Part shown: positions 19,712 through 42,199 of the stretch, in pieces
Numbering within the stretch: the stretch's first letter is position 1
How the letters are laid out: every line of letters starts with the position of its first letter
Assembly (NCBI GenBank): GCA_010093815.1
Contig: ML996574.1
DNA length: 64,000 nucleotides
Source of the DNA: Pseudovirgaria hyperparasitica
Taxonomy: Eukaryota
Strand: one strand, 5' to 3'
Translations under genes and position numbers: made by a program
The notes under the pieces: model-generated
Seen by the model: the letters and a program-made list of their open reading frames with translations, nothing else
Databases searched by the model: none
What the model was told of the DNA's origin: nothing

Positions 19712-20048
19712 CCTCCTTGAATGCCGGGTATATAGTAATTTTTATAAATGATCCTTACTAACGGCCGTAGGCCCGTATACGTGTCGAATCTATGAATAAA
19801 TATATGCTAGGTATATAGGAAATCTATGAATAAATATGTCTACCGGGTATATAGCGGAATCTATGAATAAATAGATACCGGGTATATTCTTATCCTTATG
19901 AGACTTCCTATAACATTAGGAAAGATACAGCGCTCCCAAGTACTCCTAAGTACTCCCTAAGTATTCTTTTATCCCATTATATCTATCGGGCGGACCTACT
20001 TACTATCTATCCCAACGGGACGGCTTTATATAATTTATACTAAGTATT

Positions 20049-20143
20049 CCGTTTATACCGAACGTCCCGTTTATACCGAACGTCCCGTTTATACCGAACG
20101 TCCCGTTTATACCGAACGTCCCGTTTATACCGAACGTCCCGTT
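20049..20143. repeat. Left subterminal tandem repeat, 18-bp unit CCGTTTATACCGAACGTC, at least 5 copies running into a gap
   Basis: Five perfect units plus a partial unit directly visible. Confidence 0.95.
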
Positions 20144-20398
20144 NNNNNNNNNNNNNNNNNNNNNNNNNNNNNNNNNNNNNNNNNNNNNNNNNNNNNNNNN
20201 NNNNNNNNNNNNNNNNNNNNNNNNNNNNNNNNNNNNNNNNNNNNNNNNNNNNNNNNNNNNNNNNNNNNNNNNNNNNNNNNNNNNNNNNNNNNNNNNNNNN
20301 NNNNNNNNNNNNNNNNNNNNNNNNNNNNNNNNNNNNNNNNNNNNNNNNNNNNNNNNNNNNNNNNNNNNNNNNNNNNNNNNNNNNNNNNNNNNNNNNNN
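20144..20398. other. Assembly gap (N run) in the subterminal repeat array
   Basis: Run of N. Confidence 1.
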
Positions 20399-20899
20399 CT
20401 AAAGTAATATCTTTATCTAAAGTATCTCTATAACTCTATATATCTTATTATTCTAAATTATATCTTTAGTATATTTAATTATAGTCTTTAAATTTAATAC
20501 TAGAAAGATAGTATATAATAGAGAGTAGAGGTTAAAAATTAATTAGACTAGGAACTTAAATTAAATGGTACTATTCTAAGCTCTCTCCGACTATATAGCT
20601 ATAATGAAATGTAGTAGACCTTCCTTTCTTCTACCTTTAGGCGGTGTCCTTTATCTATTAAAAGGTGTCCTTATCTAGAACTACCTTTGATGACCTTTTC
20701 TCCCACTAGACACTTCCCTCTATATTTCTAGTTACTGTTTTTATTCTCTCTTATATTATCTGTTCGGCCTCGTGGTAGTCTATATAGTTCCCTAGCTATA
20801 TACTAATATCCGACTTCTCTTAAAAGTGTGCACTCTTTATATATAGGTTAAAGACCCGACTTGAACGTCCGCCACCATCTAACTTTATTTTGATTTAAG

Positions 20900-22400
20900 T
20901 ATCGGTCGGGGTAGATAGACTACTAGTTAAGGTAGCTATAACTAGGGATAATAAGTTAGTAATAGACTTATTTATACTACACGTATATATACTATCATTT
21001 ACCGTTCCCGCGGTTACTTAGAGCGGGTCTATACTTAATACCCGAGATGGTATAATCTTATCCGTAGCTACTACTAGTAGTATAGAACTCTTACCTATAT
21101 CTAATGGCGCATGAGATGATTCGAGGTACTTATCCAACTGGTTTAGAGTATCCGACTTATCCTTTTCGTAGTAGTTAGTACCTATATAGCCTCTATAACT
21201 TTAGTATATACTTATATTACCCGATAGCTTAGACTCCTCGCTCTTATCTAAGTTATCTATATCTACTTTAGAGAAGTTATCTAGGTTATCTTTATATAGG
21301 TTTATATATATAGTGTCCGGGTCGATTGGTATTAGTACTATAAATACTAATGCTATTAGTAATTTTTAAATATAGTCGATGTGGTAGGGCGCCTAGTTCG
21401 ACTATGTTAGGCTTAGCGCTCGCTATTCCTCTATATAATTTAGCACGCGATTAGATAAAGGTGTGTATATATACCTAGTATTAGTAGAGAGCGTACGAAT
21501 CTATAGCGACCGAAGGACGAGTTCGGCGCCCGCCCGCTACTATATTCGTTAAGGGCATGCCTTATTATAATATATATAATGGTAATCGTGGATGGTGGGA
21601 TCGGTCGGAATATACTACTATAGTACTCCTTTAATCTAAGAAATCTTAGGGACTATAGTAGAACTAACTTTAGAGCCTTAATTACTACTAGCCCTATAAA
21701 CATTTTCCGAGTTACGCTAGTATTATACTAATAATTAGTAACACGTCTAACACGACGTAAGTAATATACCTTTACTCCTATATACGCGTTATTACGTATT
21801 AGGTTACTTATACTAGCTTTTCTCTTCTCGGCTATCTCCTAGTCCTAGTATTCGGATACTATCTATCTAACTCTAGAGAGGAGTTAGTAACGGAAGTCTA
21901 TTATATCTTCCTTTACTAGCGTAATAATATAGACGGGAGATGTGTTTTATAAATTATAATTAAGATAGTAGCTACTAAGATTAATATCTCCGGCGGCTGT
22001 CTAGGCCGATTATACTAGTATCCTAAAACTATCTAGGCTACTATCTAGCCATATATTAAGGCGATTAAATACTAGTAGTAACCGGCCTAAAAACGTTATA
22101 GCGATCGAAATCTCTATTATCGTAAGGTACCGGTCTCGTTCGTAAGGCTAGAGACTATCTCTATAGAACCGCCTCTTTTTACGGATAGTTAGTTCCCTCT
22201 CTACTACTATTTCTCTACCTTCTTCTATCGAGCTAGATAGCTAATATAGTAGAGGAGAGGACGTAAGGCCGTTATATCCCCGGTTACTATTACGGTAGGA
22301 TATTACCGTGACGTCTAAGCTATATAGGGCGTTACTACCATATTCGCTGCCGGTATACCTAGACTACTAGGTTATTAGTAGATAAACGAACGCGTCGAGA
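20900..22400 (-). pseudogene. RIP-degraded cargo gene of unknown function, divergent from the transposase
   Basis: Long minus-strand frame whose stops are RIP-type (e.g. YIPTDPTIHDYH...KACP...RAGAELVLRSL), acidic stretches, and an intron-like GT..CTAAT..AG segment at ~21717-21770; boundaries approximate. Confidence 0.4.
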
Positions 22401-22981
22401 TAAGCTAGGTGTATATATATACGTTTTTTATGTCGATGGCTATCGTGTAAGTCCCCATTATTAATACTAATACGTGTCTACGTTATATCGTATCTTCGTT
22501 TACCTATCCCGTTTAGTTTACTATAGTTACTAGATTGTCTTCTATTAGTGTTACTGCCACGGTAGCTAGATAGTCCCTTAACCGTCTTCCGTGTTAGAGG
22601 TCCTATAGAGAAGATATATAAGAGATTAGTAGATATTTTCATTAGTAATGGGTCGGTGACCTACTAGGCGATAACATTAGATAGCGGGATAATAACTAGC
22701 TAGTAGACACGATAAAGGTTTAGGCGTAGACTAATATAGTGTTTTTATAGACGCGTGATGCTTATACGTTATTATTAATAATTTTAAGTGAGCGTGTATA
22801 GGAATCAAGGGGCTAAGAGCCGGGTAGAAGTCGGGGGTTAGTGGGTATATATCGGGCTTTCGACGGGCTTACACCTAACTTCTTCCGGTATACGCCTAGA
22901 ATATCCGCCGTATGCCGTATTATTACTATCTACTAATAATTATACTATGGTATTTTTCCTTTATAGTAACTACACCTCGAG

Positions 22982-25900
22982 ATGCCACGGGCCGTAGTCT
23001 CCTACTAATACTATGGTAGAAAGATTAGTAGTATATACTATATGATCCGTAGGCACCATAACTCGGAACCGTGTAGACGAGTACGGCTTGCCGCATTGCC
23101 ATTATTATTATAACTATTAGGCCCGTGGCTACTACCATCGACCGGGTCACGGCGCGGCTTTAGTACTTATAGTTATATTAGTCGATGGAACTCTTTAGTT
23201 CGCTCTGTTAGTGTTTAGCCGTCGAGCGTTAATTAGGAGTCCGAGCCTATGGAATTAGGTACTTCTACTACTAATATTACCCTATATAAAGATACTACTA
23301 TTTTCCCTAATCCTATTTCGGACCTAGAATCTATGGACGGCGTTACTAGTGGCCATGGTACCGATTTAGTATATTAGTCTAATATATATAGTAGAAATAC
23401 TATATCCATGGTAACGAGGGCGTCTAGTACTATATATTTAACGAAAACGTTCGAAGAGGAGAGCGGTATATATATTATAGTAGACTAGAGTAGACGTGAT
23501 AATCCGTCCGACGTGAGTATATATAGTCTAGGTTTATAGTAGTAACTAATTTAGTAGGCCCGATTCGGTTAATTCGATAGTAAGTTTATAGAGCGCCTTA
23601 TAATATAGACGAATTGGTTTAGTATTTCGAATATAGTATACGATAAATTAACTACTATCCTTAAATAGACTTCCGCTATACCCCCCGACCTTTTTATACT
23701 AAAATCTAATATCATATATAAGTAGTTATTATACTACCCTAAAGGGATACCGCACGAAAGTTGGTAGCGTAGCTACGATATATTCGGCACTACTATAGTC
23801 GAATACTAGTATAGGGATCCGCTTACGTTAGTGGAATTTCTCCTTAGATACTAACTGTTCGCTAGTAAGCTCGTGTTTAAGCCGGTATAATAATTTACTA
23901 GTTTAGGCGACCGGATATATAGTAAAGCCTATATAGTAGATGGTTAGTAGGATATACACGCTACTATTCCGGATGGTGCTGTCGTCGTCCCTATTATTTT
24001 ATCTTCGGATAAGACGAACCTTACTAACTATAGTAGTAATAGAGTAGCATGGCTAGTCTACCTATCTATTTATAATCTACTACTAAACGTCCGCTTATCT
24101 AGGAGTCTACTATTATTTCTACTACTTACTCTATTACTAGTAGTTAAGCTAGAAACGGTAGCGAATCGCTTTATGTTCCATTAGGTTATAAGTAAAGTTC
24201 TAGCCCGTATGTCCGCCCATGATAGAGTCGTTAACTATGCTAATTATTATATAGCGTTATAGGCTATATAGAGTACTAGAGTATTAGTATTATATGCCGA
24301 TGGCGGCTCGCGTAAGTACTATCCGCGTTTAGCTTTATATATTATAGATTTTCCGGAGTAGGTGCTTGTCACGGGTGTATCCCATTAGTATACATGTCTA
24401 ATATATATAGTCCCTAGTAATAGACGATAGTATCTACGAGAAGCTATTACTAGTATATAGGAGTTCCATATATACTCGTCGTTATAGGAATAGGTTTACT
24501 ATATACGTCGCGAGTTAATAACTAATAGCTATAGTAGCGAGTATACTAGTAGTAAGATAGATAATAGGATAAGTATACCCGGTATCTTATCGTTTTCGTC
24601 GACGTCTTTCACGCTAGTAGTATAGGGCCATTATATTCGCTAATCGGTTAAGAGTCGGTATTCTAGTAGGTGGATAGAGCCATTGGATAATTTCGCCTAG
24701 TCACTTACTAGAGTTAATATATACCGCGCGGTCGCTCCGGACATTCTACATTAACTATATAAGGGCATATTAGAACACACGTTCAATTAGATAGTCTCGT
24801 ATATTATTAATTAAGAGCGTACGGGATATAAGTTAAAGGGTGTGTTTACTAGTATACCCCCTATAGAATGAGTAAAGAAGGCGATCGATAAGCGATTCGC
24901 GTCTATTAGGGCATTTAGTCGTTATAACCCACTCACGTGTATAACTTTAGTAATATAATAGACGGAGGCGATGTTTAAGCGTATGCTAGTAGTGTTTATA
25001 GTCGCGTTTAAACCGCTCCTATGTTATGATCGATACTTTCTAAGCGTAGTACGGGCGGTTATTAATATATATATGTTAGCGGCGTACTATACGCATGATA
25101 CGTAGATACTAGTATACTTAGAAGAGGCTATATTACGCTTAGACGACCTGAAATACTAGTTTATACTATATTATGGAGATAAATCGGAGGATAATCATTT
25201 TAACTTTCCGAAGTTCTATATATTGTCGCACCTAGTCGATGCCATTAAACACTATGGTTCGTTATATCTAATATTGGTAGAGCTACTAGAGTAATCTTAT
25301 GTCGTAGTAAAGGAATTATATTAAGGTTTAAATAAGAGGGAGACGTTTCTATAGTAGATACTAGTAGTAGATATACGCACGACGAATACTAAAATCTCTA
25401 GTGGTATAGAGGTGGCGGCTGGTACTAGTATATTAGTAGCCCCTAGCCTAGAGTAGCTCGATAATACACGTAAGCTAGTCGGCTAGCGGCGTATTCTAAA
25501 GGAGCCACGCCGGAGTAAATATATACTCTACGTCTTATAGAGCCATAGACTATCTATATTCTACTAGACTACTATCGGCGACCTCCACGACGTGTATAGT
25601 AGTAGTTTTATATTACTTAATACGGTTGCACCCTTTATACGTAACTATCGTAATCGGCTTATCGGGGATAATATATTAAAAGGTATGAATGTCGAACGTA
25701 TTGAAAAGGACCCTTCGTGGGCACGGGTCCTTCCTATCTATATATACGAGACCATATACGTGCCGATATAACTAGATAGAGATATATCTATAGAGGCCTT
25801 CGACCCGATTCGGGTAAGGTATACCCGTAACTAGTAAAAGAGTAGTAAGGCTAGGGAGGATTATATAATAGTATAGGAGTTTAACGAGGGTAGTAACCAC

Positions 25901-26308
25901 CTTAATAGGAAGCGGGTTAGTAAAGTCTATATATTTCTAGAGGTATACGATATAGAGAGTATTAACGTAACTAGTAGTATGGCGGCGCGATTCCTAGGTG
26001 CGTTAGTTAAACTACTTAATAACTCGGGTAGAGGCAATGTCGATACTATTAGTAGCCTTATACTATTACGTATAGCGGGTTAAAGGTCTAGTAATAAGAC
26101 TCGTACGATAGATAGGTTCCGTGTCTATGAGCTAGAGCATGTCCTACGCCCTATATAGATTATATCGCGTTAGTTAGTTATGGATAGTTCATTCTAGTTA
26201 AACACGTATAGTAATTAGGGGATCTATAATAAGGTATATAACCTAGACTTCTAGGCTATAAATAGACGAAACGTAACCGTAGCGTTAAAACACGGGCGCG
26301 TATCGTAA
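22982..26308 (+). pseudogene. RIP-degraded Plavaka (CACTA-related) transposase with N-terminal C2H2-like zinc finger
   Basis: ATG 22982 MPRAVVS(C)(Q)Y(C)GRK...RRHH; core VVVPIILSSDKTNLTN...AWLVYLSI(C)NL at ~23981-24080, (I)DFPE(Q), VAPDILH(Q)LYKGI, FNFPKF(H)ILSH, C-terminal F(W)LNTYSN(W)..YNKVYN(P)DF; intron GTATGT...GCTAAT...AG 24207-24254. Confidence 0.85.
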
Positions 26309-27867
26309 GTCTATCGCTATCTACCGCCGCCTACTATAGTATGCCGGCATATACCGGTATATAGCGGAAGTTATAGTTTATATATAGTAGCACTCGATAG
26401 TCGTATTCTATACTAGAATATCTCTAAGGAATGATCATGGTTTATTACGATCGGTTCTATAAAAGGCTTATATTTAATAACTATCTATAATTTTAGCTAA
26501 GGAGCATCTAGGGATGCACCTCCTTATTACCTAATGATTACTAGCTAGTATAAAAACTCTACGCCTCTAAAAGGGGTATATAGAACTTAAAGGATCCTCG
26601 TTCACGGGTAGAACTAGACGTGGATAGTATTAACCTAATATAGATAGATTATATATATTAATACCCTAAAATCCGAACTATGTCTCTAGGCCCACTAGAC
26701 CTAGCTCGTACCCGATCCTAATGTTTTCGTTATTCGCGTTTATGCCTCGTTGGATGCCGGGCATATAACGAGTCTATGGTTAAGTAAGTGTTAGGTACGT
26801 AACGAGTCTATTAATGAATGAGTACCGGGTATATAACGAGTCTATATAAATGAGTATAAATGAGTATATACCGGGTATATAACGCTCTTACTAGGGAAAC
26901 GTCTTCCTTAAGTATCTCCCCCTTCTAATGTTTCTCCTCCTCTTCCTTTATTCTTTCTCTAGCCTTATAAGTATAGTTAGACTTATATCGCTATATTATT
27001 AATGTATACGTTCTTATATAGACCGTTAGAAACTACGGTAACTAGATGTACGTTCTTATAATAGATAAATATACCGTACTAATATATCGCATTGTTCGTG
27101 TTTAATGTAAGGGTTCGCTACTATAATCATTCGTCGTTACGCTCGTCTATCTCTTCTTAATAATAGTACTAATCGATAACGACCTATTATAGAGATAATA
27201 GTTAGTATTACGTACTTCTCTTAAATATTCGCATATTAATATTACATGAGTATATACTTCGCGGAGGTCCTCTATCCTTCCCTTAAGCTACCTAGACCAT
27301 CCCCTAATCGCTAAAAACTCTTATATCTAACTATTTCTACTATTTATTCCTCGGTTCTACTCGTTAGACTTCGAACGATAGTAAACTACGATAGGTTAGC
27401 GGTTATCTATATTTCGCGTACGCCGAGTTAGCATGCCTGAATATAATAGATAATAGTATATTTATAATAGTATATACTAGATCTTATAGTATTCCTCTTT
27501 AGCGGTAGATCCACGTGGTTATAAAGACGGCCTACTATCCTATCGTGCCTATATACTACGCTACTCTTTTATCGTATATAGACGGTATTACCGGAGTAGG
27601 GCTATCGCCTAGTAAACTTAACGTTATGTATAGAGTATTATATATTTAACGTCGTTATTTCACGTGCCCTATATTAGTGCGGGATCGGATACCGGCCGTA
27701 TGTTTCCCCGCCTCTATTAAATTAACGAGTTATTACCGAAAACCATGTAGACTACTCGCGTTAATATAGCCGTAACGTACGTGTTATACCTACGCCTATT
27801 ATATAGTGTATATATCTTATCTCTCTATTACCCTAGTAATATATACTATTCCCTATTCTATCTATCT

Positions 27868-28830
27868 ATGGCTACGTCCGGCCAGCCGCGAACAAATAGC
27901 CGAGTAGAAGCGAGTCTCGACCTACTTTATATATTTAGAGCGTCCGATAGGTAGAAACTTCGGGTATATATAGAAGAGTTAATTTAGGAGGAATTTGCTA
28001 GCCTATTACTAAACCTACGTAGTAAGGAAGTAAAGGACCACTATATAAAACAAGAGCGTTGCCTATAGACGGTCGCGGATGAATGTATATTTATTAATAG
28101 TAGTTATACTATTTCACGGGTAGATGCTATGTATTAACTTAATACTATATTCTTAGTATTTACGCGTAACTGGCGGCGGTTAGCTAAACACCATTATATA
28201 CGTTAAAACGATGCCCCGGGCTAGACGAGCCGTTATAATATTATATATACCCCACGAACCCGCCTAATATATCTAGCTAACCTAGTTATTCGACCGTCGG
28301 ACTACTAGTATCTATATCTTCTAAGGTAGCCGTGCCGCCGTGTTATATATATATACCTATAGTCCTTATCCGCGATCGTACTCGGGTCACCCTAGTACTA
28401 ATAACGGCTATATAGAATGGCACGACGCCGTTAAATGTTAAGGGTATAAAAATACGCGATATAGTAGGTCTTAGTATAAATAAACTATTAGAATTTATTA
28501 GCTCGTCTATAGATATACTAGGGGATATAGGCGGTTATAGATATAGTCGCGTCTACCTAGAGTACCCGATTCTACCGAGCGAGTCGAGTGATATAATCCT
28601 TTATAAGGATAGTTTAGACTAGGTGTTATAGTAGACTATTAAATAGGCACTAGGCTTAGGACTAGATCGGGTGGTTTTCCGCGTGGGTAATATAAATAGT
28701 ATATTTAGAAGCCTACTATAACGTATTAACTATAATCTAACTATATAGGAACGTCGCGCTATAAGTATAGTAGCGGGATTTATCCGTCTAGCACGCGTAG
28801 GTAAGCTTAAGATATATATACGCCGATAGA
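27868..28830 (+). pseudogene. RIP-degraded cargo ORF of unknown function (~320 codons)
   Basis: ATG at 27868 (MATSGQPRTNSRVEASLDLL...); frame continues with TAA/TAG stops explicable as RIP of Gln/Trp codons. Confidence 0.5.
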
Positions 28831-29049
28831 TATCGGCATATATCGACATGTTACGACTACTAAGCGGTGTATACCGATATATACCGGTATATCCGGTATA
28901 TACCGGTATAATACCATCGCTCTTCCGTGGATATAACACCATTTATATATCTTAGGTTTTCGGTTATTAGTTACGTATAGTGTTATATATACAGCGGATA
29001 CCTTACTAGATTTAGGTCTTTCGTTAATAGTATATAGGTACGCCCTAGT

Positions 29050-29875
29050 CTACTCGATATAGGCGTAGTCGACGCTTTATCTACTTAAATAATAGACGTT
29101 AATAACGACGCGACTAGTATATTTATCTATTATATTATTAGCTAGCTAACGTTATATTAGGAGAGTCGAGCGCCGCCGTTCCGTCTACTCTACCCGTCGA
29201 TGTTAATATGCTAGCGATTATAACCTAATCGCCTTACGAATCGATATATAATGCCGGTGCACTCGAGAGTTCGAGCGAACGTGTAAAAGTCCGATATTAT
29301 ATACTATTTAGGGCCGGGGAGGAAGCGCCTACCGGCGTAGTAGTTATTAAGGCGATAGTAGAAGTCTATATATAACTAGATATACTAAGTCCGCCTCCTT
29401 CTTATGTAGTCCTATCGCTAGATAATATTACCGGTTTTAATATTACGGGAGAGAAGTTTATAGACACGAACCTATGAATATCGGTATAATATCGGCTCGA
29501 TAGTACGTATTATAGTATAAGGTAAGTTATATTTAAGCGGTAGTTAGACACGTGCGCTAGTATGCTAACGGATATATAGTATCTCTACCATGAATAGAAT
29601 AGGCAAGGCATGGCTAGTAATATCTTACTACCTAGAAGAGATAGTTACTATAGAATTTAGGAGATAGGCTCGGCGTCTATAGCGTTAGTATATCGGACGG
29701 TTGAACTTTTATATAATACTATTTACTTATATCTATATTTACCTAAGTCCCGATTCGATAGCCTTCTATAACCTACTATATACTCGGTTAGCGAGCTACT
29801 AGACTCATATAATAGTAGTATACTACCCCACTTTATATACTACTTAAGCTACTATTACTTTAGCCTACGTTAATC
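29050..29875 (+). pseudogene. Probable further RIP-degraded cargo ORF, function unknown
   Basis: Coding-like frame (...SPYESIYNAGALESSSERVKVR..FRAGEEAPTGVVVIK...) with RIP-type stops; boundaries uncertain. Confidence 0.35.
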
Positions 29876-30145: not shown

Positions 30146-30515
30146 TAAGCCTTACGTTTAAGCCGAGTCTTACGTTTAAGTTAAGCCTTACGTTTAAGTC
30201 GAGCCTTATACTTAAGTTAAGCCTTATATTTAAGCCGAGCCTCACGTTTAAGTCGAGCCTTACGTTTAAGCCGAGCCTTACGTTTAAGTCGAGCCTTACG
30301 CTTAAGCCGATTCTTACGTTTAAGCTAAGCCTTACGCTTAAGCCAATCCTTACGTTTAAGCCGAGCCTTACGTTTAAGCCGATCCTTATATTTAAGTCGA
30401 GCCTTACGTTCAAGCCGATCCTTACGTTTAAGCTAATCCTTATATTTAAGCCGAGCCTCACGTTTAAGCCGAGCCTTACGTTTAAGCCGAGCCTTATACT
30501 TAAGTCGAAGCTTAC
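30146..30515 (+). repeat. 18-bp coding tandem repeat (~20 units), de-RIPed reading (V/A)Q(A/V)EPH
   Basis: Unit GTT[C/T]AAGCCGAGCCT[C/T]AC, in frame with the helicase ORF. Confidence 0.9.
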
Positions 30516-33500: not shown

Positions 33501-34505
33501 ATAATAAACGTTATATCGCTAATTACTTACTCGGGCGAGCTAACGACCTCGCCCTACATGACGAATAATATTAATATACCACTCGCAGAGACCGTTCGAT
33601 AAATATTTAGAATCCGCGGCTATTAACACGTCGTATATACCAACGTCGACGGGGATCACGCGCACACGGTAAATAACTTAATATATAATATAGACTTATT
33701 ATGTTTCACTTAGTAGATTATTACCGAGCTCTTCTATTATAGCGTCGCACTCGATCGCGTACTCTATATTTCTATATACGCCGCCTAACGTAATCTATTT
33801 AAAGGGATAGTTAGGAACTCGCTTCTAACTATACTTACCGCAGCAGATAAAGCTCGATTTAATGCCCTACCTAAGCCGGTATAGAAGCTTGTCCAATGGC
33901 GTTCATGGGACGGTTCTTAGAGTTATAATAACAATATAGTCCTTATCAACCCGGTCTAAACCAATCACTTCGGCTTCCTCTCGGAAGTAAACCGTAACAT
34001 CATTACTATTACGCGCGCTAAATAGATAATAGTTATTATTACTAACTTCGTATCTCTTAAGAGGTAGAAAGTCCTAGACGGCGTACTCGGCGAGATATAG
34101 AATAAGTGCTCTAAGATTCATGCGATATACACGTGCACGACCCCCGACCTAGATGGCCTCCCTCTACTCTCTAATATATCTAATCCCTAATATAGTCGCT
34201 CTATACTTGGTATTAGAGAGAGGGGAGAATGAAGCGATTAATAAACTACCGATAGTACTAAGCCCCGTAAGCCGCTGGTCTACCGTAAATATAACGTCGA
34301 AGGATATAAGTCTATTAAGTATCTAAGAGAGTCGACGCTTATATATAATAACTATTAGGACATCGGCCATAAAGCTAATGTTTACCCTAAACCCAAGACG
34401 CTTACGGGTACGTTTTACTATAATTATAGGACTACCGGTTATACTCGGCGTTATTGTTCTAGCCGTACTAAATTACTAGCACGCATAAATGGTAATAATC
34501 TAGTT

Positions 34506-34605
34506 AATACTACTAGAGCTAATACTACTAGAGCTAATACCACTAGAACTAATACTACTAAAACTAATGCTACTAGAGCTAATACTACTAATAAAGTAAC
34601 TACTA
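34506..34605 (+). repeat. 15-bp tandem repeat (ACTACTAGAGCTAAT-like, ~6 units) in the helicase tail
   Basis: Directly visible. Confidence 0.85.
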
Positions 34606-35139
34606 GCGGCTAGGACGATAGAGACTACGAGGATGCCGGCCGAGACGGCGGTGTTATAATATATAAAGATATGGAAGTTAATTAGTAATAGCATATGATT
34701 AGACTCACGTGTTAGGGCTACTTAGTCACGGCTTCTTAGTAAGTATACCTCTATATCTATTTTAGTTATAGTTACGATATTCTACTAGGTAGATAGTTTA
34801 GCTCTATTAAAGACCTATTAAGGGTATTTCTATTACGTCTACTCTAGTATAGACGCGCTATTAGATAATACGGCGCCACCAGGCACGTTAACCAGTACCC
34901 ACCGATTAAGAAATAAACACGATTCTATATCTACCGTGAGCCCCGGCCTAATAACGTAGGCTTCCTTTAGTTATCCCCTTTATACTTTTAAAACTACTTC
35001 TAGCCTTTATATTAGGAGATATTACTATCTAAAGAGAAAATATAAAAAAATATACGCCCTAATCAAAGCCTCTACCTTTAGACTTTAACTATAATATATA
35101 CGGGATATAGTAAACCCAAATATCGCGTACTTTAAAAGC

Positions 35140-36800
35140 ATGGAAGGATATAATACTTGAATATAACGAAATATAGGCTCACGATACTCGGAGAGTACCT
35201 AGGGATAAGTATATGAATATAAAATGGGATAAGACCAACGCGGCACCTCGTATATATATAGCCATATACCGTTCTAGACGTAGTCGCCTACGATATAATA
35301 TTACGAGATAAGAATCATGGCTATCCAATTCTATTAAGGGTATTAGACGATATAAAGTAAATAACTACACGCCCGACCACGCCACGCTAAGTTACGTACG
35401 TGTTGTAAACGCGTGTTCGAGGAATAATAAGGATATAAACGAGGTTCACCTGGCAGGTGCCTCGTTATTCCGGCTTCTACCTCTATCGTCCGATCTATAC
35501 CTCCGTCTTCCTTGCGCCTATAATATACCATGCGTATACTATATAATTAGTCCGTAAATTATAAACACTATATTAACTACGCACGTTAACTACACACGAT
35601 TAATATATTGAATCCGATTCCATAATAAAGTAACCGTCCGAATATAGTAATTACTATAGTACTACTTCGCATCTTAAGCCTAGATATATAAGTAAAGCGT
35701 GAAGCTATAGAGGCGTGTATAAGATAGCTATATATAGAAGCATATACGGCTACTCTACTCGTAGACTATAGGCGTTAAACTAAGAACGAGCTCGGCGTAA
35801 AAAGAGCACGTAAGATTATTAATAAGGTGGCGGGCGAATTCCTAGTAGTATAGGAAAGAGTAGTAGAGTGTATAGAGATAAAGGCGCTATACTATATCTA
35901 CGACCAGGTACGCACTATAGTATAGAAAACCGTATATTATAGAAAAACTATCTCCGAGTATAAGAAGAGGCGTGTAATTATAGCCCTACATCCCACGACC
36001 TTATAATCCCCGCCTATTACGACCTTATAACCTCCGCCTATCGCGACCTTATAACCCTCGCCTATCACGACCTTATAGCTCTCGTATACTACGACCTTAT
36101 AGCCTATACTCACAGCGGTCCCATAGCCCACTAACGTATATACTACGAGAAAAATCAAATTCATGATTAGGTTTAACGATAACGCATTCCTTAAAATACT
36201 AGTACCTACATCTAACTAGTAGAAAGACCATAGCGACGCTTTATATATTAATTCGGTAGTATTTATACGGCGAATTAGGGTCTAATATACAACGAAGACT
36301 AGGAGGGCACTTAACTAGAGCTATACTACTATATATTCTATCGTGCTAGTAGTCGAGTATATAATAAGTAAAACGGAACTAGAGGTAGATATTAGATGGC
36401 TCCTATAGTTAGTAATCGAATATATCCTAGAATATAGTAATAGTATAATACTCCTCGGCCTTAGATAGGATATAGATAGTATACCCGAAGTAAAACGAAA
36501 TATAAACTAGCGACTAACATATAATAGTATAGACGGCTGTATATAGGTTACGCTCGAATAAATCCGCCCCTCCGTCCCTAATGCCACACTCGCTACGATT
36601 AGTATAATAATAGTAATAGAAAGCTACCGCCTACGACGGTAGAGATACCCATAGAGATAGTATTATAGGTAGTAGATAGTATCACCTAAACGACTTAACC
36701 CTTCCTCTAGTAATACTATATATACTACTATCGGTACCTAGGAAGTCGCGAGACCGATCTATAAGCTCTAAAGACAGTGACTTCGAAAGCCTTAAAAGTA
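35140..36800 (+). pseudogene. RIP-degraded cargo ORF(s) of unknown function containing a 24-bp repeat (TTL(Q)PPPI-like) at ~35993-36105
   Basis: Long coding-like frame (NELGVKRARKIINKVAGEFL...KIKFMIRFNDNAFLKILVP) with RIP-type stops; boundaries uncertain. Confidence 0.4.
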
Positions 36801-37318
36801 CCTTAGATATAGAGGATATAGATATCGCTTTTAAAGACTAATAGAATAATAAAAAGGGTACTAGAGGTAGTAAGAGTAGTGTGCGTACTTGGCTAAGGCG
36901 ATGCGATCCGACGTAAGACGGCTTCTACCTACTATATATCGATATATACCCGATTCTACTAGCTATATAACTATGGCGCATATGTTTGGTCAAGACGTTA
37001 TAACACTAGTATAAGCCGGCGTCTACCTGGTTCACGTTAGGATACGCCCGGTCCTACTAGCTATATTATTACTACGACTATAATCGTATAAGATCCACTC
37101 TAATAATTAAACATTTACTTATATACTTTACTTCCTCCGTACTTATCGAAATTACGTTATAATTACTAAACGCGGCGACTTAACTCCCACCGCCTAAATC
37201 TAGTTTTCATATCTTATTACTATTAACGCCGTCTTACTACCTATGGCCTAAGTCGTATATAGGAATAGATAGGCATAACGAGAGTCACGACTATCCTAGT
37301 TTAACTACCGGCTATAGA

Positions 37319-40300
37319 ATGGCTAACCGTGACACGCATATACAACGTGCGGAGGCCTTAAGCGTTAGCGCCCTCCTACCTTATATCTAGTACCTCCGAG
37401 GCCCATACCTAATACCTAAAATAAGTTATAATATATATAGGGCTACTATTATTAAGATAGTAAGTAAAGAAGTAGTGATAGAGCTTAAAACTAGTAGTAT
37501 AGATACTACTATACTCTATAGGATAGTTAAGGAAACCGTTACTAGAGAATTCAATTGGCACATCGCGGCTATAAATAGTAAGTTAGTACCGACGGTTACG
37601 ACCATAGATATAATAGAGGCTAAACTAGACATAGATACTATAGGTATAGGTACGTAGACATAGTTACCGCTGGAACATAAGGAGAAAGATAATATGGAAG
37701 ATACTAAAATGGAAGACGACGTAGCTAGTATACTTAGACACATATATATACACACGGTCCTAGATACTAACATTAGAGTAGTATCGAATATAGGCGCGGT
37801 TATAACTACTAACATAGATAATCTATCTATGAATATCGTCGTGCCTAGCGAAGCTTATCCACGCGTAAACATACTAGCTATAGAGATATAGTTATAGTTG
37901 CCGCCGGAACATGCGGAGAAAGAGAACGTGGAAGATACTAAAATGGAAGACGACGCAGCTAGTATGCTTAGATACATATATATATACATGGTCCTAGATG
38001 CTAACATTAGAGTAGTATCGAAGATAGGTACGGCTATAACTACCGACATAGATAATCTACCTACGAATGTCGTCGTGCCTAGCGAAGCTTATCCACGCGT
38101 AAATATACTAGCTATAGAGATATAGTTATAGTTGCCGCCGGAACATGCGGAGAAAGAGAACGTGGAAGATACTAAAATGGAAGACGACGCAGCTAGTATA
38201 CTTAGATATATATATATATACATGGTCCTAGATGCTAACATTAGAGTAGTATCGAAGATAGATGCGGCTATAACCACCGATATAGATAACTACCTATGAA
38301 TATCGTCGTGCCTAGCGAAGCTTATCCACGCGTAAACATACTAGCTATAGAGATATAGTTATAGTTACCGTCGGAATATACGGAGAAAGAGAACGTGGAA
38401 GATACTAAAATAGAAGACGACGTAGCTAGTATACTTAGACATATATATATATACATGGTTCTAGATACTAATATTAGAGTAGTATTAAAGACAGGTGCGG
38501 CTATAATTACTAATATAGACAATTCCCCCACGAATGCCGTCGTGCCTCTAGATACCGGCGAGACTTATCTACGGCTACTAGAAATAAAGAGGACACTCTC
38601 GGATAATATAGTAAACCTAGTCGATTCTCCGAAACGCCTAAAACTAGAATATATTATACTACTAGATATCGACCGGTAGACATATGAAAACCAGGAACTA
38701 TTCGGGTTAGTAGATAATTTGTATAGTAGATATATATCGGATAGTATATTAGCGAACGGCCTTGACTTTAAAATCCTTTCTATAGACGACGACTCTAATA
38801 GAGATAAAGTAAAGCTAGATATAGAGGACTTAATTCCGGTAGATAACGATATTAGTACGAAACTATAGGAAGCGTAAGTCATACTAAGAAGTAAGTAGGA
38901 ATATATACTACCATACTAATGTATCTATAGAATATTCGCCGTTAATAACTCTAATAAAGTAGTCTAAGCTATCTCTTATTATACGGAAGAGATACGGTTA
39001 CTTACTATAAGTATGTTTAGGCTTACGCTAGACGACCTAATAAAGGAGTTCGGCTATATACCCACTCTATATCTAGCCTTTAGTATAAGTGGGTCATATA
39101 GGCCATGGGCCGGCTAGTTACTCGCGGTAGTTACTATGTTTAAGTAGCGGGCGGGTCCGTGGAAGTGCTAGATCTTAGTAGATGGTCTAGGGCTAGGGAA
39201 GATAATCGTGCTTATAATGTTCATCCACCTCGCGTTTTATTAGGACTTTCTACGCGATAATATAGAACTTAATCTAGGAAATTATCTATAACCGACTTAA
39301 GACTCGGGCATGGATAGGAAGTGTCCGATATAATCTCTACATCCGATTAAATGTCCGTGTAGCTAGACCGATAATTTCGTCCATGTGCCCCGCCTTTAAG
39401 GACCATTTATACTATACTACCTAAGGTCCCTTCTAATAGCGCATTGGCCGCAGCGCTTTAAATAGATGTATAACGATACGGATAGCATGTTTACCGATTA
39501 AATTGATAAACGGAACCTAATAAAGATAATAGTACGGCTGGTATACTCGAAAACCCTTACCGACGCCCCTAGTATCTAATAATTCTCGCATATAGACCGA
39601 TAATACTTAGCTAAGAGATACCTATACCCCGAATGGGAACATAGCGTCGATATTAGTAATACTACTAAATTTAAGACCGACGAGGAGTATATTATTAGAG
39701 CATGGTTGATTCCCGTTAATAGGACCGCTACTACCGAATTTCCGTCGCGATACACGAAGAACCATATAATCTATAGTACCATCTAGAGTATAGAACCCTA
39801 ATATCTTAAATCTTTTAAGGGACGCGTGGTTATAAGAGTAAAGAGGGCGAAATAATTTAGTACTAAAAATACTTAAACTCGCGAAGTAGCATTCCTCGGT
39901 ATATTAATAGTAGACGAGTTCTATTCCGCAAAGAACCCCGATATAAAATAGTATAAATATACGATATATAATGCCCTTATATTTAGTATATAGGTTAGTG
40001 TAACGCCCCTCTCGAATAGTCTAGTAGATATTCTAGCGGCTATTGAGGCAGGTGCTCTAGATAAGTTACCCGACTACGTCGACGATAATACTACTAAAAG
40101 GGTATTCGAGAGCCTATAGAATAAAACTATAAGGAAGATTATTATAACGTGGTTAAATAAACTCCTTAGTTTAATAAAAGGCAAGCTAGCGGATACGATG
40201 GCCGCGATAGTCCGTAGGGCATTAGAAACCATAGAAGGTAAGCGCATACTACGTATGGTAGCCGATTGGTATTTACTATTTATTCTATAACGGGGACTAC

Positions 40301-41400
40301 TAACTAAATGGTTTAACGGAGAGGCATGTCTATCTATAATATTAAAGCTAGTAGTAGAGTTTATATCCGTCCCGGCTATAGAACTAGAGAAGATAATTAT
40401 ACGGTTATACGAGAATAGAGGTAGATAGTTTAATAATCTATAGCCTAACGGAACGCCGTAGGACTCGTAGATATAATCTATCGCCTAGAGTAAATCGAAA
40501 GGGGGTACCGGGTCCAGGCTTAACGCATACTACCATTAGGCTAGGCTAGCTACTACATATATACTACTTATATACCTTACTAATAAAAAGATAGAAGACG
40601 AGTAAATTAATATTACGCTCACGCGTCGGAGGGATAGTAATAATAGTATACCGAGTAAGATAATCACCAATCCCGTACGCGAAGCGCTCCTATAGCTAGA
40701 TAAGGCCATACAAAAGGAGATAGTATCACTAGCTAATAAACACGCTTCGAAGGTAAACTAGATCCGTAACTTTATTAATAATAACGTTTATAATGAAAGT
40801 ACTAGACGCGCGCGACGAACATCCGCCGACCGCCTAGAGAAAATCGTACTTATATATACCGTACCGGCAAGCTTAATGTTTCTATACTTAGTAAGTGTTT
40901 ATACTACCTACTAGTAACGTAATTCACTAATATATATAGGTACTACGTCCATATGCATAAGCGAAAATGTTAGTATATTTACCAGCCGGCCTAAGTACGT
41001 CCGAATTAAATAAGGTATATAGATTATTTAGGTCGACCAAGTCGGATTCTCCGTGTATTCTACTAGTATTAGCTTTATAGGTCTGCGAAGGATAAGACCT
41101 AATAGTCGCCGGTTTTATAGTATTAGTGGACTAATGCTTACGTAAGGAGACGTGGCCGTAGGCAAGTATAAGATATTATCACCATGGATAATATCGGCCT
41201 ATAGTATATACGTATGCTTTGATTTTAGACTATTTAGAGGTCGAGGCTAGACTCGCCGCGTTAGGTAAGGTAATCGAAAGCACGAGGATATAAGCCTTAG
41301 ACCTAGGAAAAGAAGATATAGCTATAGTAGAGATAGCCACACCTAACATGCTAGTAATAGGCGTACGCTTTAATCCTATAGAGATATAGTAGTATAGAAG
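37319..41400 (+). pseudogene. RIP-degraded SNF2-like (SF2) ATPase/helicase with N-terminal 78-aa tandem repeats
   Basis: RPWAG(Q)L (Q motif) ~39100; ILVDGLGLGK (motif I) 39172-39201; GPFILLLPK..IAHW (Ia) ~39400; ILIVDEF(H)SAKN (II) ~39901; VSVTPLSNS(P)VD (III) ~39994; SKVN.IRNFI and EKIVLIY (helicase C) ~40747-40857; intron GTAAGT...CTAAT...AG ~40891-40939. Start and end approximate. Confidence 0.75.
37660..38547 (+). repeat. 234-bp (78-codon) tandem repeat, ~3.8 units
   Basis: Unit starts at 37660, 37894, 38128 and 38361 (third unit 233 bp); encodes PPEHAEKENVEDTKMEDD...VVVPSEAYPRVN. Confidence 0.95.
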
Positions 41401-41534
41401 TAAGTAAGGTAGTCGGTTAATTAGCTTCTAAGAGACTAGATAGTATGGTAGTATAAATACGAACCGCTGTTTACTCATGATTACATGTCTATATATATCT
41501 ATACGTAAAGAGAAATAAGATATTTATTCTATAC

Positions 41535-42060
41535 CGTTATATAGTAGGACGTTACTATATATGCCGGTATATAACGGAATATTCCGACATGCGCCGGTAT
41601 ATTATAGAATATTTCTAGATACTCGAAGTATAGTCGTAGTATAAAGTAGCATTACTATTATATACCGGCATATGGTAGGACGTTACTATATATACCGGTA
41701 TATAACGGGATCATGTTCTAACATACTATACGCCGCCGGTATATCATAGAATATTCCTAGATACTCGAAGTATAGTCGTAATATAAAGTAGTATTACTAT
41801 ACTATACCGGTATTTAGTAGGACGTTACTATATATACCGGCATATAACGGGATTAAACGTTTTCTTAACGTTCGATAGAACGATTCTAAAAGAACCGGGA
41901 TGGCTCTAGGAGAACTAGAATAACTCCGGGAGGACTAGGACGACTCTAGGAGGATTAGGATAACTCTAGAAGTACCGGGACGACTCTAGGAGGATTGGGA
42001 CAACTCTAGAAGTACCGGGACCCATTTGGGATAACTTTAGAAGTACCGGGAGACCTAGAA
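41535..42060. repeat. Right subterminal repeats of the CACTA/Plavaka element: ~130-140-bp units (41535-41852) then ~20-bp units (41890-42060)
   Basis: GTAGGACGTTACTATATA..CCGG recurs at ~41544, 41675 and 41817; GGGACGACTCTAG[G/A]AG-type 20-mers repeat up to the TIR. Confidence 0.85.
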
Positions 42061-42199
42061 GCATTGGGAGCGCCGTATCTTTCCTAATAAAGTATCTTTT
42101 TCTCCTATACCTCCTTCTTCTTTTCTTCCTTATTAGTTCCTAACGGGGCCCGTTCTATAGTAACGAAATAGGCCTTCGATAGGTAGGCTTCGATTACAC

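What the first reader, a model, noticed from the sequence alone, without database searches (positions are those of the whole stretch)
19914..42089. Giant 22-kb CACTA/Plavaka transposon with a two-helicase cargo
Seen: short CA-starting TIRs, an AA TSD and subterminal repeat arrays enclose a Plavaka transposase plus about six further genes, including an Upf1-like SF1 helicase with zinc knuckles and a SNF2-like ATPase. The whole span is RIPed. Established: RIP acts on repeated DNA, and Plavaka transposases are CACTA-related and usually described with little cargo. Inference: the unit was multicopy and moved as a whole, as a large fungal cargo-carrying DNA transposon distinct from Starships (no tyrosine recombinase seen) and Helitrons, with its own RNA- and chromatin-acting enzymes.
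Basis: partly seen in the sequence, partly recalled or inferred. Interest (0 to 1): 0.88.

Follow-up and report, generated by a model that had tools for sequence, protein, structure and literature searches.

The report
RIP-killed giant Plavaka transposon with helicases
This is a dead, mutation-riddled copy of a very large cut-and-paste transposon of the Plavaka type that once multiplied in a fungal genome and carries, besides its transposase, a large RNA-helicase-like gene and a probable chromatin-remodeller gene.

Summary
The observation largely holds. A 25-nt inverted repeat (24/25) bounds 19914-42089. Its ends, CATTAGG...CCTAATA, are the RIP products of CATCAGG...CCTGATG, the published PlavakaB termini, and AA flanks both sides. 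A diverged paralogue of the uninterrupted target site lies in the window. Inside I can support four genes, not about seven:
- a Plavaka transposase (Pfam E=1.2e-34);
- a DUF6532 gene, a recurrent Plavaka neighbour;
- a ~1,300-codon Upf1/ZNFX1-like SF1 helicase (AAA_12 above threshold) with three RIP-damaged CCHC knuckles;
- a ~1,350-codon ORF with 78-aa repeats and weak SNF2 signals (Pfam E=0.011, below threshold; motif II-III aligns gaplessly to CHD1L).

Every segment shows strong RIP. Contigs of two runs from one sample, possibly the assembly's own source, show the 20 kb tested is highly repeated. Summed depth is even, the variants are almost only transitions, and another copy's identical right end (ending in G) sits at a different site.

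So it is a multicopy PlavakaB-type element that most likely moved as one unit. Cargo-carrying giant Plavaka elements are already known (red algae; TET/JBP in fungi). This accessory set appeared in none of my searches. An assembly gap lies behind the left end. No second full copy and no relatives of either large accessory gene (helicase, SNF2-like) were found.

The parts
19912..19913 (.). left copy of the putative 2-bp target site duplication (AA)
   Evidence: Sequence read. Matches AA at 42090-42091. Weak on its own in AT-rich DNA.
19914..19939 (+). left terminal inverted repeat, CATTAGGAAAGATACAGCGCTCCCAA
   Evidence: I18: 25 nt, 96%; the 25-mer occurs only at the two ends. CATTA is the RIP product of CATCA. 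Plavaka-11_AB in the supplement of PMC12730594 begins CATCAG.
20049..20143 (.). left subterminal 18-bp tandem array (at least 5.3 perfect copies) that runs into the assembly gap 20144-20398
   Evidence: TRF; N run.
20499..22801 (-). DUF6532-domain gene, RIP-broken, read in two frames; the domain lies at about 21512-21931
   Evidence: PF20149, E=1e-7, 32.5 bits against a cut-off of 24; E=3.2e-5 on an ORF fragment. DUF6532 ORFs also lie beside Plavaka genes in metagenome loci: 5 of 240 ORFs in 36 loci.
22799..26218 (+). Plavaka DDE transposase gene, RIP-broken (64 in-frame stops in 1140 codons); Pfam core at about 23792-24421
   Evidence: PF18759, E=1.2e-34. Seven homologues, all PF18759, best E=2.8e-23. 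Alignment keeps SSDKT, IDFPE and TE motifs; C..C is read as C..Y and H..H as H..Y. Stop counts.
26739..26960 (.). internal segment paralogous to the element's own insertion site (flanks 19706-19913 plus 42090-42140)
   Evidence: blastn E=4.6e-5 and 1.6e-4. The local alignment runs through the flank junction.
26345..28915 (.). stretch bounded by oppositely oriented clusters of the CGGTATATA(A/C)CGG subterminal-type motif; no coding signal found; possibly a nested or foreign repeat fragment
   Evidence: motif matches at 26345-26367 on +, 28874-28906 mostly on -. (I12). (10/19-bp array at 28865-28915). Pfam found nothing in six frames.
30148..30496 (.). 18-bp tandem array, 19.4 copies, just upstream of the helicase frame
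30714..34600 (+). Upf1/ZNFX1-like SF1 helicase ORF, one frame of about 1,300 codons, RIP-broken. Walker A-like GYGGARKS at 32493; AAA_12 at about 33459-34046; three CCHC-type knuckles at 34281-34457; 15-bp (5-aa) repeats at 34505-34590
   Evidence: AAA_12, E=1.5e-7, above cut-off. PDB 9q9z_A ZNFX1, E=1.8e-4. Relaxed CCHC pattern three times in frame. Lowest stop density of the six frames: 59 in 1262 codons.
35978..36104 (.). 24-bp tandem array, about 5 copies, in the unassigned stretch 34900-36900
   Evidence: No Pfam family in the two minus frames scanned.
36902..41000 (+). SNF2-like ORF. The N-terminal part holds 78-aa (234-bp) tandem repeats (37660-38510). The ATPase-like part has motif I-like ILVDGLGLGK at 39172 and motifs II-III at 39901-40040. 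This copy has a 1-base frame break at about 38289
   Evidence: SNF2-rel_dom is the only Pfam hit, E=0.011, 15.3 bits, below the cut-off of 24.9. Gapless motif II-III alignment to CHD1L, E=1.4. 234-bp array. Other copies carry an extra T behind 38289, which joins the two frames (table 4). The antisense frame gives no family.
41525..42021 (.). right subterminal repeats: 142-bp units with CGGTATATAACGG three times on +, then 20/40-bp units
42064..42089 (-). right terminal inverted repeat. The last base is A here and G in another copy
   Evidence: table 5c: contigs in both runs read 42088, then G, then sequence like 39874 onward.
42090..42091 (.). right copy of the putative 2-bp target site duplication (AA)

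Best explanation
The span 19914-42089 is one RIP-inactivated copy of a formerly active, high-copy, autonomous DNA transposon of the Plavaka lineage. It is of PlavakaB type, within the EnSpm/CACTA-related 'CMCT' group.

Mechanism, inferred from the family: the DDE transposase recognises the 26-nt TIRs and the subterminal repeat arrays. It excises the whole TIR-to-TIR unit and reinserts it with a 2-bp duplication.

The unit is unusually large, at least 22 kb. Between its ends it carries four coding regions:
- the transposase;
- a DUF6532 gene, a recurrent Plavaka partner;
- an intron-less gene of about 1,300 codons for an Upf1/ZNFX1-like SF1 helicase with three C-terminal CCHC zinc knuckles;
- an ORF of about 1,350 codons with N-terminal 78-aa repeats and a divergent SNF2-type ATPase.

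The family reached roughly tens of copies and sometimes inserted into itself. RIP (CpA to TpA) then destroyed it.

Shown: the termini, the transposase, the helicase, RIP, multicopy status with even cover, and a second insertion junction. Inferred: that all genes travelled together in most copies, and that the helicase and the remodeller-like protein served the element, most plausibly by countering RNA- or chromatin-based silencing or by opening chromatin for excision. This would parallel the TET/JBP and PAG accessory genes of other Plavaka elements.
For: TERMINI. A 25-nt TIR, unique in the window. The ends read CATTA..TAATA. PlavakaB families end CATCA..TGATG and make 2- or 3-bp TSDs (PMC12730594, passages). 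The three differing end bases (one on the left, two on the right) sit in CpA/TpG contexts that RIP mutates. Another copy shows the terminal G directly (table 5c). A. bisporus Plavaka-11_AB starts CATCAG.

INSERTION SITE. AA on both sides. A paralogue of the uninterrupted site exists.

GENES. Plavaka E=1.2e-34, with catalytic-region motifs aligned to seven homologues. DUF6532 E=1e-7. AAA_12 at 31.6 bits, above the cut-off of 27. ZNFX1 is the only PDB match. Three CCHC patterns. SNF2-rel_dom is the sole Pfam hit, at E=0.011, and CHD1L is the top PDB match over motifs II-III without a gap. The transposase, the helicase and the SNF2-like ORF all lie on the + strand.

ONE UNIT. RIP indices are alike in all segments. 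No second TIR pair is evident. On 22300-42299 the summed contig depth stays within 15.6k-31.7k (X1) and 6.9k-13.0k (X2) over the 29 bins that lie wholly inside the element. Only two short internal skips (127 and 139 bases) were listed, and no kilobase-scale deletion joints.

MULTICOPY. 16,843 (X1) and 8,762 (X2) contigs were laid. Transitions are 1239 of 1251 (X1) and 1268 of 1287 (X2) variant places.

ONE ORF IN OTHER COPIES. They carry an extra T behind 38289, which puts the 78-aa repeats and the SNF2-like part in one frame (table 4).
Against: - No second full-length copy was seen. The contigs are 140-210 bases long and cannot show synteny. The tool itself warns that summed depth is no copy number and should not rank parts.
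- Both runs come from one sample, which may be the one the window was assembled from.
- A 255-N gap lies between the left end and the rest.
- The SNF2 call is below Pfam's threshold. No Helicase_C was found. There was no PDB hit at E<=1 and no hit among 1.84 billion representatives.
- No relative of the helicase was recovered.
- In 36 metagenome Plavaka loci of 6 kb or more, 240 ORFs gave 0 AAA_11/12, 0 SNF2 and 0 Helicase_C. tblastn with our helicase, SNF2-like and DUF6532 readings hit 0 of 80 loci. These genes are therefore not general Plavaka parts. Those loci are only 23-25% identical to our transposase, and many contigs are short.
- About 6 kb (26.2-30.1 kb and 34.9-36.9 kb) has no recognisable coding. 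It holds a segment paralogous to the host insertion site, so at least one foreign repeat fragment may be nested inside.
Confidence: 0.68

Rival explanations
1. Composite. A normal-sized Plavaka element was hit by one or more unrelated elements that brought the helicase and/or the SNF2-like ORF. In this reading these genes are not Plavaka accessory genes. Either only this copy is 22 kb long, or the nest arose once and was then copied.
For: Inside the element lie a paralogue of the host insertion site (26739-26960) and oppositely oriented clusters of subterminal-type motifs at 26345-26367 and 28874-28906. These show foreign or related repeat material in the interior. Self-nesting of the family does occur (table 5c). 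None of 36 metagenome Plavaka loci has such genes. About 6 kb has no assignable function.
Against: No internal TIR pair brackets either gene. RIP indices are alike in all segments. Summed depth is even over all 29 bins that lie wholly inside the element, and no joint skips a large segment. That fits a nest only if it predates the amplification, in which case the genes did travel as cargo. All three large ORFs share one strand.
Confidence: 0.15
2. Assembly chimera. With tens of similar copies in the genome, the scaffold joined the left end of one copy (19914-20143) across the N gap to the body of another copy or of another element. The 22-kb TIR-to-TIR unit would then not be a physical molecule.
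For: A 255-N gap at 20144-20398 directly follows a perfect 18-bp array. The family is highly repeated. The left 2.4 kb was not covered by the laid stretch, which began at 22300.
Against: The two flanks of the 22-kb span together match one continuous paralogous sequence. That is expected only if both ends belong to one insertion. The left subterminal units, reverse-complemented, resemble those of the right end by eye.
Confidence: 0.07
3. Passive gene capture. The helicase and the SNF2-like ORF are host genes picked up by the transposon, as CACTA and Mutator elements pick up host fragments in plants. They would have no role in its life cycle.
For: No relatives were found that would tie them to transposons. 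They are absent from other Plavaka loci. ZNFX1-type helicases and SNF2 ATPases are ordinary cellular genes (established knowledge).
Against: Both are very long single frames without visible introns, about 1,300 and 1,350 codons (table 4). Captured fragments are usually partial. Each is preceded by a tandem array. Other Plavaka lineages keep accessory genes with chromatin or DNA-modifying roles (PMC12730594; bioRxiv 10.1101/2025.02.11.637652; passages read).
Confidence: 0.1

Closest known systems
PlavakaB DNA transposons of fungi (Kojima 2025, PMC12730594; passages and one supplement passage read)
   Same: Plavaka-type DDE transposase. Termini CATCA..TGATG, here read through RIP as CATTA..TAATA. 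A 2- or 3-bp TSD. Can carry an accessory gene. Plavaka-11_AB begins CATCAG, like the un-RIPed reading of our end.
   Different: The published fungal accessory gene is a TET/JBP dioxygenase; none was found here. The published families were rebuilt from Agaricomycotina. This copy lies in a genome with strong CpA-type RIP, which is typical of Pezizomycotina (recalled). It carries a helicase and an SNF2-like ORF instead. Placement in the PlavakaB clade by phylogeny was not tested.
Giant Plavaka elements of red algae (Bostrychia; also reported in Chondrus; bioRxiv 10.1101/2025.02.11.637652, passages read)
   Same: Plavaka transposase. Very large size (17.4-19.1 kb there, at least 22 kb here). Several accessory genes thought to act on DNA or chromatin. 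Tandem repeat arrays next to an accessory gene. Massive amplification.
   Different: Their accessory genes are PAG1-3: a DNA methylase plus SET protein, a ParB-like plus 2OG-oxygenase protein, and one unknown. Here they are a DUF6532 protein, an SF1 helicase with CCHC knuckles, and an SNF2-like ORF. The host kingdom differs. Here all copies seen are RIP-mutated.
Helicase-encoding DNA transposons: Helitron, AcademH, KolobokH (as summarised in PMC10799480, passages read)
   Same: A DNA transposon that encodes its own helicase next to the transposition enzyme. All three are reported in fungi.
   Different: Those helicases are Pif1-type (Helitron) or DEAD/Helicase_C SF2 types (AcademH, KolobokH). 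Here it is an Upf1-like SF1 helicase with AAA_12. The transposase superfamily also differs. PIF1 matched only 20 residues at the P-loop, E=0.02.
ZNFX1 / Upf1-like SF1 helicases (PDB 9q9z_A). Fungal relatives Hrr1 and SAD-3 act in RNA silencing (recalled, from no call)
   Same: Helicase core similarity, E=1.8e-4 over motifs II-III. AAA_12 domain. Zinc-binding modules after the core.
   Different: The zinc modules here are three CCHC knuckles, not NFX1-type fingers. The gene sits inside a transposon. No orthology was tested.
Starship giant cargo elements of Pezizomycotina (recalled)
   Same: Large, cargo-carrying, mobile as a unit in filamentous fungi.
   Different: Starships move by a tyrosine-recombinase 'captain' (DUF3435). 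No such domain was found in the scans made. This element has a DDE transposase, short TIRs and a 2-bp TSD.

Membership tests
Plavaka (PlavakaB) DNA transposon | Encodes a Plavaka-type DDE transposase | tested here: met
   PF18759, E=1.2e-34, 120.5 bits against a cut-off of 26.3. Seven homologues, all PF18759. tblastn hits in 80 of 80 metagenome Plavaka loci.
Plavaka (PlavakaB) DNA transposon | Termini 5'-CATCA..TGATG-3' (PMC12730594) | tested here: met
   Observed CATTA..TAATA. The three differing end bases (one left, two right) are CpA>TpA or TpG>TpA changes in a sequence with RIP indices of 1.59 and 0.30. The terminal G is seen directly in another copy (table 5c). The match is therefore through an inference about RIP, not letter for letter.
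Plavaka (PlavakaB) DNA transposon | Target site duplication of 2 or 3 bp | tested here: met
   AA at 19912-13 and 42090-91. Weak by itself. The paralogous empty site fixes the boundaries only to within about 1-3 bases, because that copy differs by small indels.
Plavaka (PlavakaB) DNA transposon | [quoted passage not shown] | tested here: inconclusive
   In the alignment with 7 homologues, CPRC aligns with CLIY and LHQLHKG with LHXLYKG. SSDKT, (A/I)D(Y/F)PE and TE are kept. Cys>Tyr and His>Tyr are RIP-type codon changes, but the original residues are inferred.
Plavaka (PlavakaB) DNA transposon | Falls in the PlavakaB clade in a transposase phylogeny | not tested
   Reference PlavakaA and PlavakaB transposases were not available as tool sequences. 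The homologues found are unclassified.
Upf1-like SF1 helicase (AAA_11/AAA_12) | AAA_12 (C-terminal RecA-like lobe) above Pfam's gathering score | tested here: met
   31.6 bits against 27, E=1.5e-7, profile positions 16-193 of 195.
Upf1-like SF1 helicase (AAA_11/AAA_12) | AAA_11 (N-terminal lobe with the Walker A motif) | tested here: not met
   No AAA_11 hit at E<=0.01. A Walker A-like GYGGARKS at 32493 is read by eye. PIF1 matched its P-loop at E=0.02. RIP damage may explain the miss.
ZNFX1 subfamily | NFX1-type zinc fingers after the helicase core | tested here: not met
   The only PDB match is ZNFX1 over the core, E=1.8e-4. The zinc modules present fit the CCHC knuckle pattern three times. 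No NFX1-type finger family was reported.
SNF2 family ATPase | SNF2-related N-terminal domain at Pfam's gathering score | tested here: not met
   15.3 bits against 24.9, E=0.011. It is the only family listed at E<=10, covering profile positions 9-176 of 290.
SNF2 family ATPase | Motifs I, II (DExH) and III (TGTPxQN) in order and with family spacing | tested here: inconclusive
   Residues 267-315 align gaplessly to CHD1L 155-203: DEFYSAKN against DEAHRLKN, and VSVTPLSNSL against LTGTPIQNSL. But E=1.4. Motif I-like ILVDGLGLGK at 39172 is read by eye.
SNF2 family ATPase | C-terminal helicase lobe (Helicase_C, motifs IV-VI) | tested here: not met
   No family for 40300-41364 at E<=10. 'SKGGTGSRLN' and 'IEDEXINITLTRRRDSN' at about 40470-40650 look like motifs V and VI. 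That reading is by eye against motifs I recalled, from no call.
Starship | Tyrosine-recombinase captain (DUF3435) at one end | tested here: not met
   No such family among 131 ORF fragments or in the read-through scans. Read-through did not cover all six frames of the whole element.
Helitron | Rep/HUH nuclease fused to a Pif1-type helicase; no TIRs | tested here: not met
   TIRs are present. No Helitron_like_N. PIF1 matched only 20 residues at E=0.02. The helicase is of AAA_12 type.

The most novel reading that the evidence does not exclude
A lineage of fungal Plavaka transposons acquired, and kept as working accessory genes, a ZNFX1/SAD-3-type RNA helicase with RNA-binding CCHC knuckles and an SNF2-type remodeller with a repeat-array-matching N-terminus. 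It used them as a counter-defence against the host's RNA-silencing and heterochromatin machinery, or to remodel its own chromatin for excision. That allowed a unit of 22 kb or more to reach tens of copies before RIP caught it. This would be a helicase-and-remodeller counterpart of the TET/JBP and PAG anti-silencing cargo of other Plavaka elements.
Probability: 0.2. Interest if true: 0.8.

Novelty: new variant of a known kind. Interest (0 to 1): 0.55.

Why it matters
Accessory genes of DNA transposons are rare. Where they are understood (VANDAL anti-silencing proteins, TET/JBP dioxygenases), they show how mobile elements fight host silencing. A Plavaka element that carries a ZNFX1/Upf1-like helicase and a probable SNF2 remodeller would add two new classes of enzyme to that list. 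It would also extend giant, cargo-bearing Plavaka elements from red algae and mushrooms to a fungus with strong RIP. The helicase type is the one that hosts use in small-RNA silencing, so a transposon-borne copy suggests mimicry or hijacking. That idea could be tested if an intact relative is found. In this genome the element is dead, so its direct value is as a marker of a past burst (very roughly 50-100 copies of 22 kb) and as a lead for finding live relatives.

Tried and rejected
- Whole genome: none is held, so copies could not be counted or compared directly.
I went on with ORF fragments and shorter references.
- The search for homologous proteins with the RIP-damaged helicase gave 0 hits twice. 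The word index does not cope with RIP.
- The one exhaustive representative search, spent on the SNF2-like ORF, gave 0 hits.
- PDB search with 800 residues of the SNF2-like ORF gave 0 hits at E<=1.
- The ESM Atlas does not take read-through translations. Its one use, on a flanking intact ORF, gave PHD-type fungal clusters below 0.9 and no taxon.
- Metagenome scan with the RIP-damaged transposase: 87 pattern matches, none confirmed.
- The 7-sequence alignment was too diverse for a scan.
- Self-comparison: no second copy of any part of the element elsewhere in the window by blastn or by tblastn with the four read-through proteins. I therefore dropped the idea that the host sequence is another copy of the same element.
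- Host sequence: the 379-bp direct repeats at 16059-16436 and 49304-49682 suggested an LTR retroelement around the insertion. Three best + frames gave no Pfam family, so the host repeat stays unidentified.
- A looser TIR-like 14-mer search was at chance level: 24 matches against 28 expected.
- In-frame TGA counts did not mark former ORFs, because TGA is rare in all frames.
- Rfam and tRNA scans of the window: nothing.
- Earlier findings of this scan: nothing on this genome or these words.
- The founding Plavaka paper (Iyer et al. 2014, recalled) is not held. I could not check whether it mentions helicase or SNF2 neighbours.
- Literature searches for Plavaka+helicase+transposon, Plavaka alone, DUF6532, CACTA+fungal+helicase+SNF2+transposon, and AcademH+helicase found no description of a Plavaka with these genes. 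bioRxiv supplements are closed, so the red-algal supplementary tables were not seen.

Full report
WHAT IS AT THE COORDINATES

The window is AT-rich (GC 0.21-0.40) from about 1 kb to 55 kb. It is gene-like (GC about 0.51) from 55 kb on. At the stated ends there is a 25-nt inverted repeat, 19915-19939 against 42064-42088, with 24 of 25 bases complementary. The 25-mer occurs nowhere else in the window, and none is expected in 100 shuffles.

Including one more base on each side, the ends read CATTAGG...CCTAATA. AA flanks both sides, at 19912-13 and 42090-91. Tandem Repeats Finder shows arrays just inside both ends:
- 18 bp x5.3, 100% matches, at 20049-20143;
- 142 bp x1.8 at 41592-41853;
- 20/40-bp units at 41890-42021.

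The right-end units carry CGGTATATAACGG three times on the + strand. That motif has 9 matches in the window against 0.74 expected. The left array runs straight into a run of 255 N at 20144-20398. The element's length, and the link between its left end and its body, therefore depend on scaffolding.

RIP

TpA/ApT is 1.49-1.68 and (CpA+TpG)/(ApC+GpT) is 0.26-0.36 in every segment of the element. The surrounding repeats give similar values. The genes at 55-64 kb give 0.66 and 1.21. No open frame longer than 181 codons survives. The best frames still carry about 5 stops per 100 codons. It also means that all protein evidence below comes from translations with X at each stop.

WHICH FAMILY THE TERMINI BELONG TO

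Kojima (2025, PMC12730594; passages read) splits Plavaka into two groups. PlavakaA has TGT..ACA ends and a 2-bp TSD. PlavakaB has CATCA..TGATG ends and a 2- or 3-bp TSD. A supplement passage shows Plavaka-11_AB starting CATCAG.

Our CATTA..TAATA differs from CATCA..TGATG at three positions. All three are CpA>TpA or TpG>TpA, the changes RIP makes. One is confirmed directly. Contigs in both sequencing runs read up to 42088, then G, then continue with sequence like 39874 onward (table 5c). Another copy therefore ends ...CCTAATG and sits at a different site, inside a further copy of the same family.

A diverged paralogue of the target site lies at 26739-26960. It aligns with the left flank (blastn E=4.6e-5 and 1.6e-4). 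In a local alignment it runs through the junction of the two flanks. Both ends thus belong to one insertion, with boundaries at the TIR ends to within about 1-3 bases.

GENES

- Transposase. Pfam finds Plavaka (PF18759) at E=1.2e-34 on the + strand. A word-indexed search recovered seven homologues, all PF18759 and all with Agaricomycete names, 23-37% identical. In an alignment with them, SSDKT, (A/I)D(Y/F)PE and TE are kept. CPRC appears as CLIY and LHQLH as LHXLY, which are RIP-type Cys>Tyr and His>Tyr changes.
- DUF6532. It lies on the minus strand to the left of the transposase, E=1e-7, above the cut-off.
- Helicase. A single + frame from 30714 to about 34600 gives AAA_12 at 31.6 bits, cut-off 27. 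Its only PDB match is ZNFX1, 9q9z_A, E=1.8e-4. It ends in three patterns [C/Y]x2[C/Y]x4[H/Y]x4[C/Y] within 180 bases. Only 14 such patterns occur in six frames of 54 kb. The 'SF1 helicase with zinc knuckles' stands.
- SNF2-like ORF. This is weaker. The only Pfam family at E<=10 is SNF2-rel_dom, at E=0.011 and 15.3 bits, below the cut-off of 24.9. The top PDB match is the SNF2 enzyme CHD1L, aligned without a gap over motifs II-III, but at E=1.4. No C-terminal lobe family was found. There was no PDB hit at E<=1 with the longer query and no hit among 1.84 billion representatives. The antisense frame matched no family.
- One ORF in other copies. The 234-bp tandem array at 37660-38510 is in frame as 78-aa repeats. 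Other copies carry an extra T behind 38289 (table 4). That extra base joins the repeats and the SNF2-like part into one ORF of about 1,350 codons.
- Unassigned DNA. Nothing was found in any of the six frames of 26200-30200, or in the frames scanned of 34900-38400. I count three genes besides the transposase, not six.

WAS IT MULTICOPY, AND DID IT MOVE AS A WHOLE?

No genome is held. The window holds no second copy. Two DNA runs of one sample hold the sequence, and that sample may be the assembly's own source. I laid their contigs on 22300-42299 at 80% likeness or more.

| Run | Contigs laid | >=99% | 95-99% | 90-95% | <90% | Transitions among variant places |
|---|---|---|---|---|---|---|
| X1 | 16,843 | 5678 | 5049 | 4775 | 1341 | 1239 of 1251 |
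| X2 | 8,762 | 2044 | 2665 | 3013 | 1040 | 1268 of 1287 |

Summed depth is 15.6k-31.7k (X1) and 6.9k-13.0k (X2) in all 29 bins that lie wholly inside the element. The single contigs listed have depths of about 160-660. The family thus had very roughly 50-100 copies. The tool warns that this figure is not a copy number and that parts should not be ranked by it.

Only two short internal skips (127 and 139 bases) and the self-insertion joint were listed. No kilobase-scale deletion derivative appeared. Together with the uniform RIP indices, the shared strand of the three large ORFs and the absence of internal TIR pairs, this favours one unit. Contigs of 140-210 bases cannot prove synteny.

IS THE CARGO TYPICAL OF PLAVAKA?

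A metagenome scan with an alignment of three homologues gave 463 relatives, of which the best 80 loci were kept. Our transposase reading hits 80 of 80 loci. Our helicase, SNF2-like and DUF6532 readings hit 0 of 80.

From the 36 loci of 6 kb or more I took ORFs of 150 aa or more. Filtering overlaps cut 286 ORFs to 240. Pfam tallies on those 240:

| Family | ORFs |
|---|---|
| Plavaka | 41 |
| DUF6830 | 17 |
| Pkinase_fungal | 12 |
| DUF6532 | 5 |
| AAA_11/12 | 0 |
| SNF2 | 0 |
| Helicase_C | 0 |
| Tet_JBP | 0 |

DUF6532 is therefore a recurrent Plavaka neighbour. The two large enzymes are not general Plavaka parts. These loci are only 23-25% identical to our transposase, and many are short, so they say little about close relatives.

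COMPARISON WITH WHAT IS KNOWN

Cargo-bearing Plavaka elements are in print:
- TET/JBP in fungal PlavakaB (PMC12730594);
- three 'giant' families of 17.4-19.1 kb with accessory genes PAG1-3 and adjacent tandem arrays, which make up about 36% of the Bostrychia genome (bioRxiv 10.1101/2025.02.11.637652; passages read).

Helicase-encoding DNA transposons are also known in fungi: Helitron, AcademH and KolobokH (PMC10799480, passages). Their helicase types and transposases differ from ours.

Five literature searches found no Plavaka with an Upf1/ZNFX1-like helicase or an SNF2-like gene. The founding paper was not available, and the preprint's supplements are closed.

VERDICT

This is a real, precisely bounded, RIP-killed PlavakaB-type transposon. 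It was highly repeated and most likely moved as a unit of at least 22 kb. It carries an accessory gene set that none of my searches found described. The helicase is solid and the SNF2 assignment is tentative. It is a new variant of a known kind, not a new class of giant element.

The main open points are:
- the assembly gap behind the left end;
- the lack of any second full copy or intact relative;
- about 6 kb of unassigned interior DNA that includes a repeat fragment shared with the host site.

Noticed in passing
window 4630-8669 and 11828-15867; 8653-10535 and 50071-51953: Other RIP-mutated repeat families. One is a 4.0-kb direct duplication at 94% identity. Another is a 1.9-kb repeat at 93%. 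The 4-kb repeat carries a relaxed CCHC pattern at 4665 and 11863, so it may be a retroelement gag remnant.
   Followed up: no
window 16059-16436 and 49304-49682: 379-bp direct repeats, 93% identical, bracket the host sequence in which the element sits. They may be the LTRs of an older retroelement. Three best + frames of the host gave no Pfam family.
   Followed up: partly
window 51724-51956 / 52196-52428; also 2855-3083, 3198-3430, 10303-10535: A 233-nt inverted repeat, 90% complementary with 239 nt between the arms. Further copies of the arm lie elsewhere in the window. It may be a foldback or MITE-like repeat.
   Followed up: no
window 16570-16611, 46058-46099, 48774-48801, 49726-49758: A palindromic motif of about 30-42 nt (TTAGTTAAGGGTAGCCCTTAACTAA) recurs four times in the host repeat around the element.
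   Followed up: no
window 19786-19887: The host DNA just outside the left TIR has a 34-bp x2.9 array containing ACCGGGTATATAG. This resembles the element's own subterminal motif. The element may have landed in the subterminal region of a related or similar repeat.
   Followed up: partly
window 38289: A one-base length polymorphism among copies: an extra T in about half (X1) to two thirds (X2) of the depth (table 4). It decides whether the 78-aa repeats and the SNF2-like part share one frame.
   Followed up: yes
window 54813-55673 (+) and 61631-64000 (-): The first un-RIPed genes right of the repeat block. One is a WD40-repeat ORF. The other is a long ORF whose nearest Atlas clusters are PHD-finger proteins of fungi, with scores below 0.9.
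   Followed up: no
metagenome loci L007-L080 (the 36 loci of 6 kb or more): Fungal-type protein kinase ORFs (Pkinase_fungal, 12 ORFs) lie within 10 kb of Plavaka transposase genes in soil-type metagenome contigs, so they look like frequent neighbours, as does DUF6830 (17 ORFs).
   Followed up: no
window 3668-4072, 11210-11824, 20144-20398: Three assembly gaps, all inside RIP-mutated repeats.
   Followed up: no
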